A stretch of DNA of 61,688 nt, filler included, from Circinaria calcarea (taxonomy: Eukaryota): NCBI GenBank assembly GCA_051942165.1. It is 3 parts of 3 records of this genome, joined end to end, with 100 filler letters (N's around TTAATTAATTAA, not from the genome) between each part and the next. Parts side by side here need not be neighbours in the genome. Positions count along the whole stretch, not along the records: positions 41,217 to 61,688 come from JAVECS010000176.1; 2 more parts are not named here. One strand, 5' to 3'. Below, in pieces: positions 46,389-59,963 of the stretch. Numbering within the stretch: the stretch's first letter is position 1; every line of letters begins with the position of its first letter. The position numbers were made by a program, and so were the translations under genes. A model generated the notes under the pieces. That model was given only the letters and a program-made list of their open reading frames with translations. It had not been told where the DNA came from and made no database searches.

Positions 46389-46863
46389 GGTCCTCATTTC
46401 CCTTGAGTTTAATACCTCCGCATTGTCAATGTTGGAGCACAGGCGATGTCTCATGTATAAAAGCGCGTTCTGTGTTTCCCGATAGGCAGATATCCGGTGG
46501 ATAGCCGCAGCTTACTGGAGCGAATCGTGAGTCGGGAGGAAAATGCTCCACTCTAGGACTATTTTATATTAGAATCTTACCTTTCGCTTCGATTACACAT
46601 TCATCGTCATTGGTAGACGCGATTGTCGTTCTATGATGTTATTTCCAACCTTCACGGTTTGACTCATTCCTTTGCTATTGAATACATAACCAATCGAGAC
46701 CCGGCTCATCACGAGCAACATATCCAGAGACACCATCGAGCTTACTACCCCTAATCCAACAAGTATCATCGAAGTCGGATTGAGGTTTACAACTTTGATC
46801 ATCCCCAAAAACATTCAACCCCCACTGGGTTATACTGTCCGGTAACAGCGCGGTGATCGTTAC

Positions 46864-48408
46864 ATGCCGAAGTACCTTTGGACACGAAACGGTGTAGACG
46901 TCTTCGTCAACGATCCCGCCGAGAACGATGTACCTCCAGTTACGCCTAGTGCGTTCCCTCCGATGGCACCCAGCCGCCTGGCCATTGCCAGCTCAGCCGC
47001 AATTGCAATTGCAACCCCAACCGAAGGCACCATCATCCCCTACATCCACCCCGTGGATCCGAACGCACCTTTGGGATCCTTTGAAAACCCGCATCCGTAT
47101 ATTGGTAAGCGTGAACCTAGACGGCATGGTGTCCCGGCTACAGCAGAAGGCCCCTCCTCCGACATCTATCGACATGATGGTGGGCCAGCAGAAGGCCCCT
47201 CCTTCGACCTCTATCGACATGATGGTAGGCCAGCTGAAGGCCCCTCCTCCGATATATATCGAGATGATGGTAGGCCGGCAGAAGGCCGCTCCTCTGACAT
47301 CTATCGAGATGATGGTAGGCCGGCAGGGAGGGAGGTAGCACTTGTCCCCGAAGGAGCTGTTGTGCATACTCGTGCAAGCGACACAGAGCAGGAAACCGAC
47401 TCGAGGATCTACGATACGTATCACTGGCCTAGATCGAGGTTGAGGGAACAGGAACGGGACGGCTCATCTAATGCTAGGAGAGTTGCTCGGAGAAGTGGGC
47501 CATCGGGTAGACCACAAGGGGTCATTGAAGCGCCGCGAACAGCGCATCCGGTGCATCGGGCAACCCAAGAGCAGTCTCCATCAAGGCTTCCAACAACTGA
47601 TCGCCAAGGATACCAGCGGCCTTCAGTAATTGATGAAACGCGTGATCATGACGTATGCGAAACGACAACAGTTGAGCGCCATGTCAGATTCCGTCCAGGT
47701 CCAGACTCGGAGATAAATAGTATTCCGCCCTCGAGACCGTGGATAAGGGAAGGAATTGATTTTAGCCATATTCGGCCGTTTGGTGTGGACAAAGAGAACC
47801 GAAGAGCAACGCATCGACGCACAGCTGTACCTTCATCAAGGACTGCTCCGCTGCCAACCACACGTACTAGTCCGCCACAAAGAACGCGAGAAACCGACCC
47901 AGCTCTAACAGGACTTCGGACAGCTCCAAGACCATCGGACCACCCCGTCATGACCAAGATCCATCTCCCGCCGCGGGATGGCCTTCCCCAGGATCGTGCT
48001 AACCATCCAATACAATACGGAGAATCCCCACGACGACACAGCGATCGGTCATCACGATCCGCAAGTCGGAGGAGGAGGTTGTTTACTCGCGAACTCTGTG
48101 GACCGAATTGCGAGCTTCATGCTTTCCCAGATAACCATAGCAATAATCCAGAACTTGATGCCGACTTTGCTCTCGCGCTTGCCATGTCGCTAGAAGACCG
48201 TCATGCGCAGCGGCAGGAGCATAATCCACACGCCACCGAACCCGAAAACCCCTTGGCTGATGCCCCTCGCTGGCCGCCCTGTGATATTTGCGGCGATAAG
48301 CCGCAGCAAGTCAAAGATCATGGAACAGGGTTCTGCTACGGGTGTTATGGCGAAGGGCAAGCGGCTGCAAAGGTTCTGGAGCGGGAGGGAAGGCGGAGGA
48401 CGAGGTGA
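46864..48408 (+). CDS. Hypothetical disordered protein with 15-aa tandem repeats, UIM-like motif and C-terminal C4 zinc-finger-like motif
   Basis: 514-codon ATG-started ORF; ELDADFALALAMSLED; CDICG..CYGC. Confidence 0.6.
   Translation: MPKYLWTRNGVDVFVNDPAENDVPPVTPSAFPPMAPSRLAIASSAAIAIATPTEGTIIPYIHPVDPNAPLGSFENPHPYIGKREPRRHGVPATAEGPSSDIYRHDGGPAEGPSFDLYRHDGRPAEGPSSDIYRDDGRPAEGRSSDIYRDDGRPAGREVALVPEGAVVHTRASDTEQETDSRIYDTYHWPRSRLREQERDGSSNARRVARRSGPSGRPQGVIEAPRTAHPVHRATQEQSPSRLPTTDRQGYQRPSVIDETRDHDVCETTTVERHVRFRPGPDSEINSIPPSRPWIREGIDFSHIRPFGVDKENRRATHRRTAVPSSRTAPLPTTRTSPPQRTRETDPALTGLRTAPRPSDHPVMTKIHLPPRDGLPQDRANHPIQYGESPRRHSDRSSRSASRRRRLFTRELCGPNCELHAFPDNHSNNPELDADFALALAMSLEDRHAQRQEHNPHATEPENPLADAPRWPPCDICGDKPQQVKDHGTGFCYGCYGEGQAAAKVLEREGRRRTR
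47141..47326 (+). repeat. 45-bp coding minisatellite, 4 copies
   Basis: Units start at 47141, 47186, 47231, 47276 and encode AEGPSSDIYR(H/D)DG(G/R)P variants. Confidence 0.92.
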
Positions 48409-49007
48409 GCATTCGAAGGCGTGATTTGGTGGAAATCATGTCGCGAGAAAACTGCTTGAGATTTGCTGAGGGGACTGAGACGGAGAGACCGATGTGGTGA
48501 GAGTTTGCTACGATAGCTTTCTCGTGCGAAACATGCGGATCCTGTATTCATCTTGCGGTAACATCGAACAGCATAGACCTTTAGCAGAGGTGGTGTTGAT
48601 CAGTGGGTTTGGTAACTGATCCAAAAAAGCGTCTTGTTTGCATACTCGATACATTCTCTAGTCTAATATGCTTTAAGCTGTTGGAGCAACCGGATGAAAT
48701 CTCTAATTCGCATTCCAAGAAGAACGCTTGGATCATCCCGCGTGATTGGAGCCGCATCAATGTACCTGCAGGTGGGCGAGGCTGATGCATTATTCGAGAA
48801 TTGTGCCAGCCAACGCCGAGCAGTTGAACTGATTGCCCCAATCTGAACCACCGCCTGTATCTACGTCGGCGATGATCAATTCATCGCGAGTGAAGGTATT
48901 CGTGCAGCATCTGTTTAAGAGTCATGCATGTTTCCGGTAGATGCCGAGCCGTTGGGTAATAATTCCATGTTTCTCTCGCAGTACTATCACGGACCTCCGA
49001 TTGCTAC

Positions 49008-57570: not shown

Positions 57571-58181
57571 ACGTAGAGAGGGATAATTGCGATTAGCTAC
57601 TTCTTTCGTCAAGTACACAGCTCGTTATAATGCTGCAGCGGGGAACAATTCTTAGTTAGGGACAGTTTCCGGTATGCCACTCCATTCACCAGGTGCGTTG
57701 TTAGTCTCGATCTCTTCGTTCCGCAACGCTACCTAACCAGTAACCTTGCAACACGTTGAATGGGTTATTTCCGAAGGCCTCCACAACTTGAAGTTCCTCA
57801 CCGATCATGTCCGAGGGAGGGTGCTGCAAGTCGAACCACCAATTGTGTACACCAAAATCGATACACGAAAGGGCAGCCACTTTCGTCACCCTCCTCCAGC
57901 CTACACTGCATAATAACTCTTGATGGTGCTCAAATATGCTGCTGCTTGCCCAACTTTCTATTCTTCTCCTAAGCTTTGCTTGCCTTATCGCTGCTACCTA
58001 CTCGTTTTTGGGCATTTACTTTTGATTAGACTATTACTGAGAGAAGGGAAAAAGGTATGAGGCGATTCTAGACCCTACTGAAGCAATGTGTATGTTGAAA
58101 GCGTCAAGGCAGATTCAATTCAAGCATAAAAGCACGCCCGTCCGCTACTTCTACTAAGCTACAAGTTGAAAAGTGTCAGTG

Positions 58182-59261
58182 ATGGCTACCGGTGGTGAAC
58201 CAACTCCAAACGGCTGGACTCAGGAGCAGATTGGCGGATTGTTTCCCAAGGGCTGTCCCGTGGCAGCTCTATCTCGCAACCCTGACCACGTTGACGCGTT
58301 CGTCTGTGGTACTGATGGCAAAGTGTACAATTCTTGGTGGGCATCGGGACAAGACTGGTCTGGAAAGGATAACAACTGGGGCTCAATCGGCGGCAATTTC
58401 GAGCCGGGATCGAAAGTAACAGCAGTGGCACGTTCAAGTGACAACCTGGACTTATTTGTGGTGGGTACTGATGGTAAAGTTTACATGTCCTACTGGTACA
58501 CTGGAGGAGACTGGTCTGGTATCGACAAAGATTGGGACTCAATTGGCGGGGAGTTTCCACCTGGAACAGAAATTGCGGCACTTTCACGAACCCCCGATAA
58601 CCTGGACCTTTTTGCTGTTGGCGCCGATGGTTCCGTGTACACCTCATACTGGTACACAGGAGGGAACTGGTCGGAGTGGCAGTCAATTGGTGGAAAATTT
58701 CCGACCAAAGCCAAGGTGGACGCGGTTGCCCGGTCCCAGGACAATCTTGACCTCTTTGTTTGTGGCGAGGATGGGCGGGTTTACCACTCCTATTGGCACA
58801 CAGGGGGAGACTGGTCAGGTAAAGACAAAGACTGGAACTCGATCGGCGGTATCTTCACACCAGGAACTGAAGTAGCGGCCGTGTCCCGCTCGCCGGATAA
58901 TCTGGATGTATTTGTTGTCGGTACTGACGGCAAAGTATACAATTGTTATTGGTATACTGGGGGAGACTGGTCAGGCGCTAACGATAATTGGGGCTCTATC
59001 GGTGGTGAGTTCAAGGACCAGTCACCGATAACTGTGCTCGCCCGTGGCAAATCCAAATTGGATGTCTTCGTCAGCGGTAGCGACAACAAGGTGTCTCACA
59101 GTTCATGGGAAGATGGAAAGGACTGGTCGGGTTGGGAAGTGGTAACCGAGACACATCTCCCCAACGCAAAAGTCACAGCGCTTGCGCGTACTGAGCAGAA
59201 TCTGGATGTGTTTATCTGCGATGAGGATGGCTGTGTTTATGTATCTTGGTCGAGCTCCTAG
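58182..59261 (+). CDS. Seven-bladed beta-propeller lectin (PLL-like / fucose-binding type), intronless CDS, no signal peptide
   Basis: Seven ~46-51-aa repeats of (V/I)xA(L/V)(S/A)R..DNLDLFVVGTDGxVY.SYW..GxDWSG...WxSIGG.F. Confidence 0.85.
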   Translation: MATGGEPTPNGWTQEQIGGLFPKGCPVAALSRNPDHVDAFVCGTDGKVYNSWWASGQDWSGKDNNWGSIGGNFEPGSKVTAVARSSDNLDLFVVGTDGKVYMSYWYTGGDWSGIDKDWDSIGGEFPPGTEIAALSRTPDNLDLFAVGADGSVYTSYWYTGGNWSEWQSIGGKFPTKAKVDAVARSQDNLDLFVCGEDGRVYHSYWHTGGDWSGKDKDWNSIGGIFTPGTEVAAVSRSPDNLDVFVVGTDGKVYNCYWYTGGDWSGANDNWGSIGGEFKDQSPITVLARGKSKLDVFVSGSDNKVSHSSWEDGKDWSGWEVVTETHLPNAKVTALARTEQNLDVFICDEDGCVYVSWSSS

Positions 59262-59963
59262 GATAGGCAGCTGGCAGTGCCGAGGAAATCTCATCACAAG
59301 CAACAAAGATGTGTGGGTACTTTTGAGTCCTCAGCAGATTTTTACAAGAACATTGTTTACTATCATTTGAAGACACTCATTGTACAGAAAGATCACAGAA
59401 GGCATACATTATTCTAGATAAAGTAAATTCCACAACGACCACTATCGACTCTTGAAGCAGTTTCTCACCCCTCAAAACTTCTCGTTCCGCAAAGGGTTGT
59501 ATGATATACATCTGCCTGCCTGACTTGGGTCAACTCCATCCCTGTCATAGCATTCTAATCTTTCCGCAACGAGTCCCGAATGTGGTAGAATGCCAAAGTG
59601 AATAGCAACTGCGGTTAAGAGTGCGGATGGAGTACATTGACAGCAGCAGTAGTCCAGGCCCACTTTTGAGGCCCATGGGCGTAAAATAGTGTAAAGTGTT
59701 TTCGACATGTGCAGTCCAGAAAAGCCTTCTGCTGAGCCTCTTTGGAGAGGTCAGAGATTGAATGAGTTGGCTATGAAATTCCAGGGGAAATTACCGAATG
59801 GGGGAGTGTTTGCGTAAGGCTGAGGAACATCACGCTTGTCCCGGATTGGCTACTGGCAGTGCAGGGTAAGTTCATTAATGTTGCTCTCGTGAAGTTCCAA
59901 TCCACGTAAAGTCAACCTTAGCAGTTCTTCAAATCATCCAAGGCTCATTCCCAACTCTACAAT

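What the first reader, a model, noticed from the sequence alone, without database searches (positions are those of the whole stretch)
46600..59400. Non-self-recognition island (NLR, lectins, decaying genes) between RSM22 and RPN5
Seen: ~13 kb with no housekeeping genes between two conserved genes on one contig. It carries a repeat/UIM orphan, a frameshifted NACHT-ankyrin gene, a collapsed pseudogene, a possible beta-trefoil remnant and an intact propeller lectin. Established: fungal NLRs and cytoplasmic lectins act in non-self recognition and defence and turn over by birth-and-death. Inference: a rapidly cycling immunity or symbiont-recognition locus linking sensor and glycan-binding genes. 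No transposase or recombinase is visible, so the insertion mechanism is unexplained.
Basis: partly seen in the sequence, partly recalled or inferred. Interest (0 to 1): 0.7.

Follow-up and report, generated by a model that had tools for sequence, protein, structure and literature searches.

The report
Ageing accessory-gene pocket in a fungus
Between two housekeeping genes of a fungus lie a broken immune-type receptor gene, a wrecked gene of an unnamed family and an intact sugar-binding gene, but they look like ordinary neighbours inherited together rather than a working recognition unit.

Summary
The 13.6-kb interval between RSM22 and RPN5 is real and on one contig. It holds a repeat orphan, a NACHT-ankyrin NLR with two frameshifts, a pseudogene of an unnamed ~770-aa fungal family (426 codons deleted), a 190-bp dispersed repeat and an intact seven-repeat BP39L-like lectin. 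No beta-trefoil remnant was found. It is not a recent insertion: contigs of a relative cover the same genes at the same divergence as the flanks (7.9% vs 8.0%), lack the first frameshift and keep the deleted segment. NLR-lectin linkage does not recur. No lectin lay near the 16 other NLR contigs examined, and the lectin's homologue in another fungus has no NLR, RPN5 or RSM22 within 10 kb. NLR decay is genome-wide (54 NACHT contigs). Best reading: an inherited, low-constraint pocket where accessory genes live and die independently; the lectin is an old, conserved gene, probably of bacterial origin. Ancestral RSM22-RPN5 adjacency could not be tested. A better lead lies outside the window: 8 of 12 fructosamine-kinase-like genes in this genome sit beside NACHT-WD40 receptor genes, 6 of them head-to-head.

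The parts
43983..46388 (+). RSM22, mitochondrial small-subunit protein (left flank, intact)
   Evidence: PF09243 E 1.4e-33; first in-frame ATG
46864..48408 (+). Orphan ORF, 514 aa, low complexity, 15-aa repeat x4, weak UIM-like motif and C-terminal CxxC...CxxC
   Evidence: ORF; repeat 47141-47326; UIM under cut-off; single copy in genome; covered in relative X1, with 3- and 18-nt in-frame indels listed; no atlas hit
49008..53199 (+). NLR-like gene: PigL_N-type helical N-terminus, NACHT with Walker A and B motifs, ankyrin repeats; intron 50265-50328; frame breaks at about 49192 and about 52195
   Evidence: PF17111 E 2e-5 (under cut-off, truncated), PF24883 E 7e-41, PF05729 E 7e-10, Ank_2 E 4e-31 and 7e-41; homologues run on across the breaks; X1 has one base fewer at 49192; as assembled the first frame gives 64 aa
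53481..54391 (.). About 0.9 kb skipped or replaced in relative X1; no protein family, no second copy found
   Evidence: joint 53480 to 54392
54563..55597 (+). Pseudogene of an unnamed ~770-aa fungal family; codons 117-542 deleted at about 54911, 3 stops, 1 frameshift
   Evidence: P0141 83% identical; tblastn; X1 loose ends at 54911 and 54914 translate to the deleted segment's ends
56814..57003 (.). 190-bp dispersed repeat, TG...CA ends, solo-LTR- or MITE-like; skipped in relative X1
   Evidence: 3 other full copies at 73-77% and 1 partial copy; joint 56811 to 57072; no Rfam match
58182..59261 (+). Intact 359-aa seven-repeat beta-propeller lectin, BP39L/PLL-like, no hydrophobic leader by eye
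   Evidence: BP39L 6gxr E 3e-23, only PDB hit; single copy; near homologues 96% and 82-85%
59964..61636 (+). RPN5, proteasome lid subunit (right flank)
   Evidence: PF22241, PCI, RPN5_C; ATG

Best explanation
The interval is an inherited, low-constraint pocket between conserved genes of an ascomycete, probably lichen-forming (inferred), in which accessory genes from unrelated families sit side by side and turn over independently. Shown: all interval genes are also in a relative about 8% diverged; after the split, this lineage's copy of the unnamed family lost 1.3 kb and gathered stops, and the NLR as assembled is a null allele. Inferred mechanism: the deletion junction carries a 2-nt filler, as end-joining repair of a break would leave; the frameshifts sit at or beside short base runs (slippage); the 190-bp repeat is a footprint of past transposition. 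When intact, the NLR most likely worked as an all-in-one sensor: ankyrin repeats sense, NACHT oligomerises, and the helical N-terminus signals or kills (inferred from family knowledge). The lectin most likely works alone as a cytoplasmic multivalent fucose/mannose binder in defence or microbe contact (inferred from BP39L). It belongs to an old stand-alone clade, probably acquired from bacteria and kept under purifying selection.
For: Divergence from X1 is 7.9% in the interval and 8.0% in the flanks (5 and 3 listed contig pieces); 29 of 30 bins covered. X1 contigs bridge orphan-NLR, NLR flank-pseudogene flank and the 56.8 kb-lectin stretch. NACHT query: 63 matches on 54 contigs, 12 with stops. 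Unnamed family: 22 matches on 13 contigs, 8 with stops, and 0 of the 12 other contigs shared with a NACHT match. No lectin family in 130 ORFs from 11 other NLR contigs or on 5 further NLR contigs. No NACHT, ankyrin, RPN5, RSM22, LIP5, orphan or P0141 hit in 22 of 22 lectin-homologue loci, 8 of them one fungal species with up to 10 kb each side. A 12.5-kb stretch with a stop-bearing NACHT-ankyrin gene and no other Pfam-named gene also occurs on C2. GC of the interval equals the rest of the window (0.498 vs 0.503). A real NLR partner does recur in this genome and is easy to see: 8 of 12 fructosamine-kinase-like genes.
Against: For one gene chosen in advance, a NACHT gene within 5-10 kb has only a 2.5-4% chance, so the pairing is not trivially expected; it was, however, chosen after the fact. 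The cross-species test rests on one well-covered fungal species and a partial second. X1 contigs are 2-3 kb, and the RSM22-orphan and lectin-RPN5 junctions were not among the rows shown. Only 16 of some 55 other NLR contigs were read, ORFs under 120 aa were left out and at most 5 families per ORF were shown. No reads of this genome were available, so the frameshifts may be assembly errors. The unnamed family and the orphan have no known function, so an immune role is not excluded.
Confidence: 0.72

Rival explanations
1. A functional non-self-recognition or defence island: NLR, lectin, orphan and the unnamed family were clustered by selection and act together.
For: NLR and lectin are 5 kb apart (chance 2.5-4% for a pre-chosen gene); the arrangement is at least as old as the split from X1; fungal defence islands are an open hypothesis (PMC10197012, passage); NLRs and ricin-type lectins are up-regulated in lichen thalli (bioRxiv 2024.08.16.608140, passages).
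Against: No recurrence in 16 other NLR contigs or in the other fungus that has the lectin; no second lectin; the lectin stays intact while the NLR is broken; no executioner gene beside the NLR.
Confidence: 0.12
2. The NLR is intact in the organism and its two frameshifts are assembly errors. This is compatible with the best explanation for the rest of the interval.
For: Both breaks are single-base events at or beside short base runs; X1 lacks the first; no premature stop lies in the three open frames; a 71-nt GT..AG stretch with a weak donor could remove the second break.
Against: The neighbouring pseudogene has real decay (deletion, stops); 12 of 63 NACHT matches bear stops; long housekeeping ORFs on the contig are unbroken.
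Confidence: 0.2
3. The interval is the remnant of cargo from a large mobile element (Starship-like) or a rearrangement breakpoint.
For: Mixed accessory cargo; one mobile-type repeat inside; ancestral RSM22-RPN5 adjacency not shown.
Against: No recombinase or transposase family; same GC and same divergence as the flanks; no second copy of the 5-kb middle apart from the 190-bp repeat.
Confidence: 0.08

Closest known systems
Fungal NLRs of the helical N-terminus-NACHT-ANK 'all-in-one' type (PMC12881547 and PMC10197012, passages)
   Same: Tripartite layout; many paralogues; birth-and-death turnover; best named homologues are 30-42% identical ascomycete NACHT proteins, most with ankyrin repeats.
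   Different: Broken by two frameshifts as assembled; no adjacent executioner gene.
PropLec7C seven-bladed lectin BP39L and the PLL family (PMC11186620 table passage; PMC12203525 passages)
   Same: Seven Trp-rich tandem repeats; E 3e-23 to 6gxr; class listed for bacteria and Ascomycota, binding L-fucose and mannose.
   Different: Stand-alone fungal clade of 13 sequences; binding untested; closest outside relatives are about 50% identical, mostly unnamed and often fused to other domains.
Fungal two- or three-gene immune clusters (nwd2/het-S, PNT1/HELLP, gasdermin-protease) and the proposed fungal defence islands (passages)
   Same: An NLR gene among non-housekeeping neighbours.
   Different: Those clusters recur across loci and species and pair a sensor with an executioner; here the partners do not recur and none is a known executioner.

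Membership tests
Fungal NLR (NACHT-ANK) | Central NACHT domain with P-loop and Walker B | tested here: met
   PF24883 E 7e-41, PF05729 over cut-off; motifs read by eye in the translation
Fungal NLR (NACHT-ANK) | C-terminal superstructure-forming repeats | tested here: met
   Ank: 5 + 5 scored stretches in two frames
Fungal NLR (NACHT-ANK) | N-terminal effector domain (HeLo-like/SesA/Goodbye group) | tested here: inconclusive
   PF17111 24.3 bits vs cut-off 27.2 on the piece before the first break; that PF17111 is the former Helo_like_N is recalled
Fungal NLR (NACHT-ANK) | Continuous reading frame | tested here: not met
   Two frame breaks in the assembly; the first is absent in X1
Fungal NLR (NACHT-ANK) | Ligand-triggered signalling or cell death | not testable with these tools
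   Needs experiment
Seven-bladed propeller lectin (BP39L/PLL-like) | Seven tandem Trp-rich blades homologous to a solved member | tested here: met
   6 blade motifs by pattern plus the first by eye, 21 Trp; 6gxr E 3e-23; no structure was predicted for it
Seven-bladed propeller lectin (BP39L/PLL-like) | Fucose/mannose binding | not testable with these tools
   Inferred from class
Beta-trefoil (ricin-type) lectin remnant | Profile match to a trefoil family | tested here: not met
   0 of 18 read-through frames; 0 genome matches to PF14200, control rang in 1 of 14 genomes; a very decayed remnant could escape both
Fungal immune gene cluster / defence island | Recurrent linkage of the same partners at independent loci or species | tested here: not met
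   0 of 16 other NLR contigs with a lectin; 0 of 22 lectin-homologue loci with NACHT or ankyrin hits; 0 of 12 other P0141-family contigs shared with a NACHT match; samples are small
Fungal immune gene cluster / defence island | Adjacent executioner (HeLo/HET/gasdermin/amyloid motif) | tested here: inconclusive
   None by Pfam, but two neighbours have no known function and short amyloid motifs were not searched
Fungal immune gene cluster / defence island | Flanks adjacent (empty site) in outgroups | tested here: inconclusive
   No outgroup locus obtained. RPN5 = AFUA_3G06610 via YDL147W (PMC3289889 table; YDL147W = RPN5 is recalled); LIP5 = AFUA_3G06560 is recalled; RSM22's tag not found
Starship-type giant transposon | Tyrosine-recombinase captain at the element's start | tested here: not met
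   No recombinase family in ORFs or read-through frames of the interval; the defining feature is recalled
Solo LTR / MITE (190-bp repeat) | Dispersed copies with defined ends | tested here: met
   TG start in 3 of 4 full copies, CA end in 5 of 5
Solo LTR / MITE (190-bp repeat) | Target-site duplication and parent element | tested here: inconclusive
   No clean duplication; no coding partner beside the copies

The most novel reading that the evidence does not exclude
The interval is a true fungal defence island in which a bacterially derived fucose lectin, an NLR and a member of a large unnamed ~770-aa family act in one pathway. The family (751 clusters at 50% identity, no Pfam match, confident model with no clear structural match, multi-copy and often broken) would then be an undescribed fungal immune component. 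Its N-terminal half faintly resembles the first RecA domain of DEAD-box helicases (Z about 4, below the tool's trust level), which would fit a derived nucleic-acid sensor.
Probability: 0.1. Interest if true: 0.75.

Novelty: new member of a known kind. Interest (0 to 1): 0.27.

Why it matters
As it stands it is an ordinary example of fungal accessory-gene turnover and does not test the defence-island hypothesis. Three things found on the way matter more: a stand-alone fungal clade of BP39L-like lectins that can be expressed and glycan-typed; a large unnamed fungal family with a confidently predicted, unmatched fold; and, outside the window, a recurrent pairing of hydrolase-NACHT-WD40 receptors with fructosamine-kinase-like genes. 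If that pairing holds across species, it would be a candidate new fungal NLR module (a guarded kinase or a sugar-adduct sensor).

Tried and rejected
Beta-trefoil remnant: not found. Introns as the cause of the first NLR break: no GT..AG stretch of fitting length and phase by eye (sequence). Structured RNA for the 190-bp repeat: no Rfam match but one chance hit elsewhere, E 0.89. Function of the unnamed family: no Pfam for P0141 or over cut-off in the family region of 57 members (one member carries a separate DUF3176); no PDB sequence hit better than E 0.07; no atlas hit; Foldseek 0 matches at E<=0.001 for both models; best VIA Z 4.2 for the whole model and 3.6 for the C-terminal model; the middle part was not folded alone, so no claim of a new fold is made. 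Orphan: no atlas hit, no paralogue. Counting other lectin classes in the genome: FB_lectin and Jacalin searches rang nowhere, controls included, so they are uninformative. No RNA holder listed. One X1 bin (53706-54372) had no cover. RPN5 in viral contigs: nothing. A. fumigatus gene-order look-ups gave tags without useful descriptions; one supplement was too large to read and may hold the missing descriptions. Maximum-likelihood trees did not finish; only FastTree was used, unrooted, with 13 of 125 rows left out for short or over-long propeller envelopes, so gene transfer is not proven. Earlier-finding look-ups returned nothing. No complex was predicted, as no binding is claimed.
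Full report
Setting. The window joins three contigs with N runs. Positions 41217-61688 are contig C176 of G000, a 31.5-Mb assembly in 5,512 contigs. The genes carry spliceosomal introns, and the best named relatives of the NLR are ascomycete proteins, many from lichen-forming taxa (best: Pleopsidium flavum, 42%; lifestyles recalled). The one run listed as holding part of the stretch is a biocrust metagenome. 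A lichen-forming ascomycete is therefore an inference.

What is there. RSM22 (43983-46388) and RPN5 (from 59964) are confirmed by Pfam. Between them lie five things. (a) A 514-aa orphan with a 45-bp repeat in 4.1 copies and a UIM match under cut-off; it is single-copy. (b) An NLR-like gene, 49008-53199: PigL_N-type N-terminus, NACHT, ankyrin repeats, with one canonical 64-nt intron and two single-base frame breaks across which homologues run on. As assembled, the first frame yields 64 aa. (c) A pseudogene at 54563-55597. Its closest intact homologue P0141 (766 aa, 83% identical) aligns over residues 1-116 and 543-766 only, with three stops and one frameshift. (d) A 190-bp repeat at 56814-57003 with three other full copies at 73-77% identity and one partial copy in the genome. 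(e) An intact 359-aa lectin whose only PDB sequence hit is BP39L (E 3e-23); it is single-copy. The proposed beta-trefoil remnant was not found: 0 of 18 read-through frames hit such a family, and PF14200 had no match in the genome.

Is it an insertion? Contigs of run X1 were laid on 41700-61688 at 80% likeness or more: 24 contigs, 29 of 30 bins covered. The relative has every gene of the interval. In the 8 pieces listed, differences were 481 of 6,070 bases in the interval and 343 of 4,305 in LIP5, RSM22 and RPN5 (7.9% vs 8.0%, Fisher p 0.94); 23 further pieces were not shown. One contig spans orphan and NLR, one joins the NLR's 3' flank to the pseudogene's 5' flank while skipping 911 bases, and one runs from about 56.8 kb into the lectin while skipping the repeat. 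The relative has one base fewer at 49192, which is the first frameshift. Its loose ends at 54911 and 54914 translate to the residues of P0141 that border the deletion. So the genes were in place before the split, and the deletion and first frameshift are specific to this lineage or assembly. The RSM22-orphan and lectin-RPN5 junctions and the second frameshift were not among the rows shown. GC content does not differ from the rest of the window. Whether RSM22 and RPN5 are adjacent in outgroups stays open: RPN5 is AFUA_3G06610 in A. fumigatus (PMC3289889, table passage), LIP5 being AFUA_3G06560 is my recall, and RSM22's tag was not found (search listings, passages and supplement rows only).

Is NLR-lectin linkage more than chance? 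The genome has 63 NACHT matches on 54 contigs, 12 with stops (a lower bound, and some stops may be introns). With about 55 loci, a gene chosen in advance has a 2.5-4% chance of an NLR within 5-10 kb, but this pair was chosen afterwards. Three recurrence tests were negative. First, 130 ORFs of 120 aa or more from 165 kb around NLRs on 11 of the larger other contigs gave no lectin family; nor did 5 further NLR contigs read later. Second, a metagenome scan with the lectin alignment gave 19 loci. Eight are one fungal species (98-100% identical, five with the full 10 kb on both sides) and one is a second species at about 80%. None of these 19, nor the 3 bacterial loci, has a tblastn hit to the NACHT, ankyrin, RPN5, RSM22, LIP5, orphan or P0141 queries. 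There the lectin sits among what look by eye like a sugar transporter, an Sm protein, a methyltransferase, an F-box-like and a CNNM-like gene (labels recalled, not scanned). Third, the P0141 family has 22 matches on 13 contigs, 8 with stops, and none of the 12 other contigs carries a NACHT match; many of these contigs are short. NLRs in long stretches without housekeeping genes also occur elsewhere, for example 12.5 kb on C2.

The lectin. Of 223 homologues, 120 were listed; most are unnamed, many are longer proteins with other domains, and the named ones are mostly bacterial, with two fungal. In a FastTree of 112 rows, 13 stand-alone sequences, including the window's and the fungal one above, form one group (SH-like 99) among the others. 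This fits one old acquisition from bacteria kept vertically, but the tree is unrooted, most rows have no taxon, and only two members of the group are shown to be fungal. Near homologues are 96% and 82-85% identical with all repeats intact, which points to conservation rather than rapid cycling. The class is already listed for bacteria and Ascomycota, binding fucose and mannose (PMC11186620, table passage), and PLL homologues in fungi are mentioned in PMC10481521 (passage). PMC8227253 (passages) does not mention PLL or BP39L.

The unnamed family. It has 751 clusters at E<=0.001; the 3 of 10 members looked up that bear names are hypothetical proteins of lichen fungi (lifestyle recalled). Pfam, PDB sequences and the atlas give nothing. 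AlphaFold2 models are confident (pLDDT 91.8 whole, 90.1 C-terminal part), but fold searches give no clear match: best Z 4.2, with many rows from DEAD-box RecA domains over residues 44-308, and Z 3.6 for the C-terminal part. These scores are below the tool's trust level. Nothing ties the family to immunity beyond its birth-and-death pattern.

Mechanism and verdict. The best reading (0.72) is a vertically inherited pocket in which unrelated accessory genes persist or decay on their own. The decay is shown; end-joining, slippage and past transposition as causes are inferred. Fungal NLR birth-and-death is documented and defence islands are a stated hypothesis (PMC10197012, passages); known clusters pair a sensor with an executioner (PMC12881547, passages). 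This locus meets neither pattern. Rivals: functional island 0.12; mobile-element cargo or breakpoint 0.08; separately, NLR intact and misassembled 0.2. One search for papers with fungal NLR, lectin, gene cluster and NACHT listed 3 papers; the passages read from two of them describe no NLR-lectin cluster.

A side result that serves as positive control. While reading NLR neighbourhoods, a fructosamine-kinase-like gene appeared beside 3 of 3 NACHT-WD40 genes and 0 of the 8 other contigs. The genome has 12 PF03881 matches. Eight lie within about 7 kb of a NACHT-WD40 gene: C54, C95, C108, C509, C526 and C674 head-to-head (C108 with a deaminase gene between), C181 and C365 on the same strand with metabolic genes between. 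Of the other four, two are on contigs under 6 kb. The NLRs share an N-terminal alpha/beta-hydrolase-like region (PGAP1 hit; alignment). One pair compared was 43% (NLR) and 57% (kinase) identical, so the linkage has lasted through old duplications. About 0.4 of 12 would be expected by chance, but the copies are paralogues and not independent. MFS transporters lie near four of them. Two searches (fructosamine kinase + NACHT + fung; fructosamin + NACHT + WD40) found 0 papers, which does not cover subscription journals. It was not tested in other species.

Noticed in passing
G000 C54, C95, C108, C509, C526, C674, C181, C365 (L083-L084, L117, L087-L088, L114, L108, L107, L093-L094, L110-L111): 8 of 12 fructosamine-kinase-like (PF03881) genes lie within about 7 kb of a hydrolase-NACHT-WD40 receptor gene, 6 head-to-head; MFS transporters are near four. 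Linkage kept across paralogues 43-57% identical; 0 papers in two searches. A candidate NLR-partner module and a better lead than the finding itself.
   Followed up: partly
window 54563-55597; intact homologue P0141: Unnamed ~770-aa fungal family: 751 clusters, no Pfam, confident model without clear structural match, C-terminal cysteine cluster, 13 contigs in this genome. A conserved strand-GPGPT-helix motif resembles a dead P-loop by eye; faint DEAD-box RecA similarity (Z about 4).
   Followed up: partly
window 56814-57003; L103-L106: 190-bp TG...CA dispersed repeat, 4 full copies and 1 partial; the window's copy has a 15-nt insertion forming a hairpin; skipped in relative X1; parent element not found.
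   Followed up: partly
window 53481-54391: About 0.9 kb skipped or replaced in relative X1, with no protein family and no second copy; unexplained.
   Followed up: partly
L076:644-1038 and L061-L068: In a second fungus the lectin homologue seems degraded (32% best segment) but keeps its place upstream of the same two genes as in the first species.
   Followed up: no
G000 C526 and C1328 (L108, L116): Both contigs start with ORFs of nearly the same size and position before a fructosamine-kinase-like gene, but only C526 continues into an NLR; possibly duplicated blocks, one without the NLR. Sequences not compared.
   Followed up: no
window 20511-20610 and 41117-41216: N runs mark joins between three separate contigs, so gene order across them is not evidence of linkage.
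   Followed up: yes
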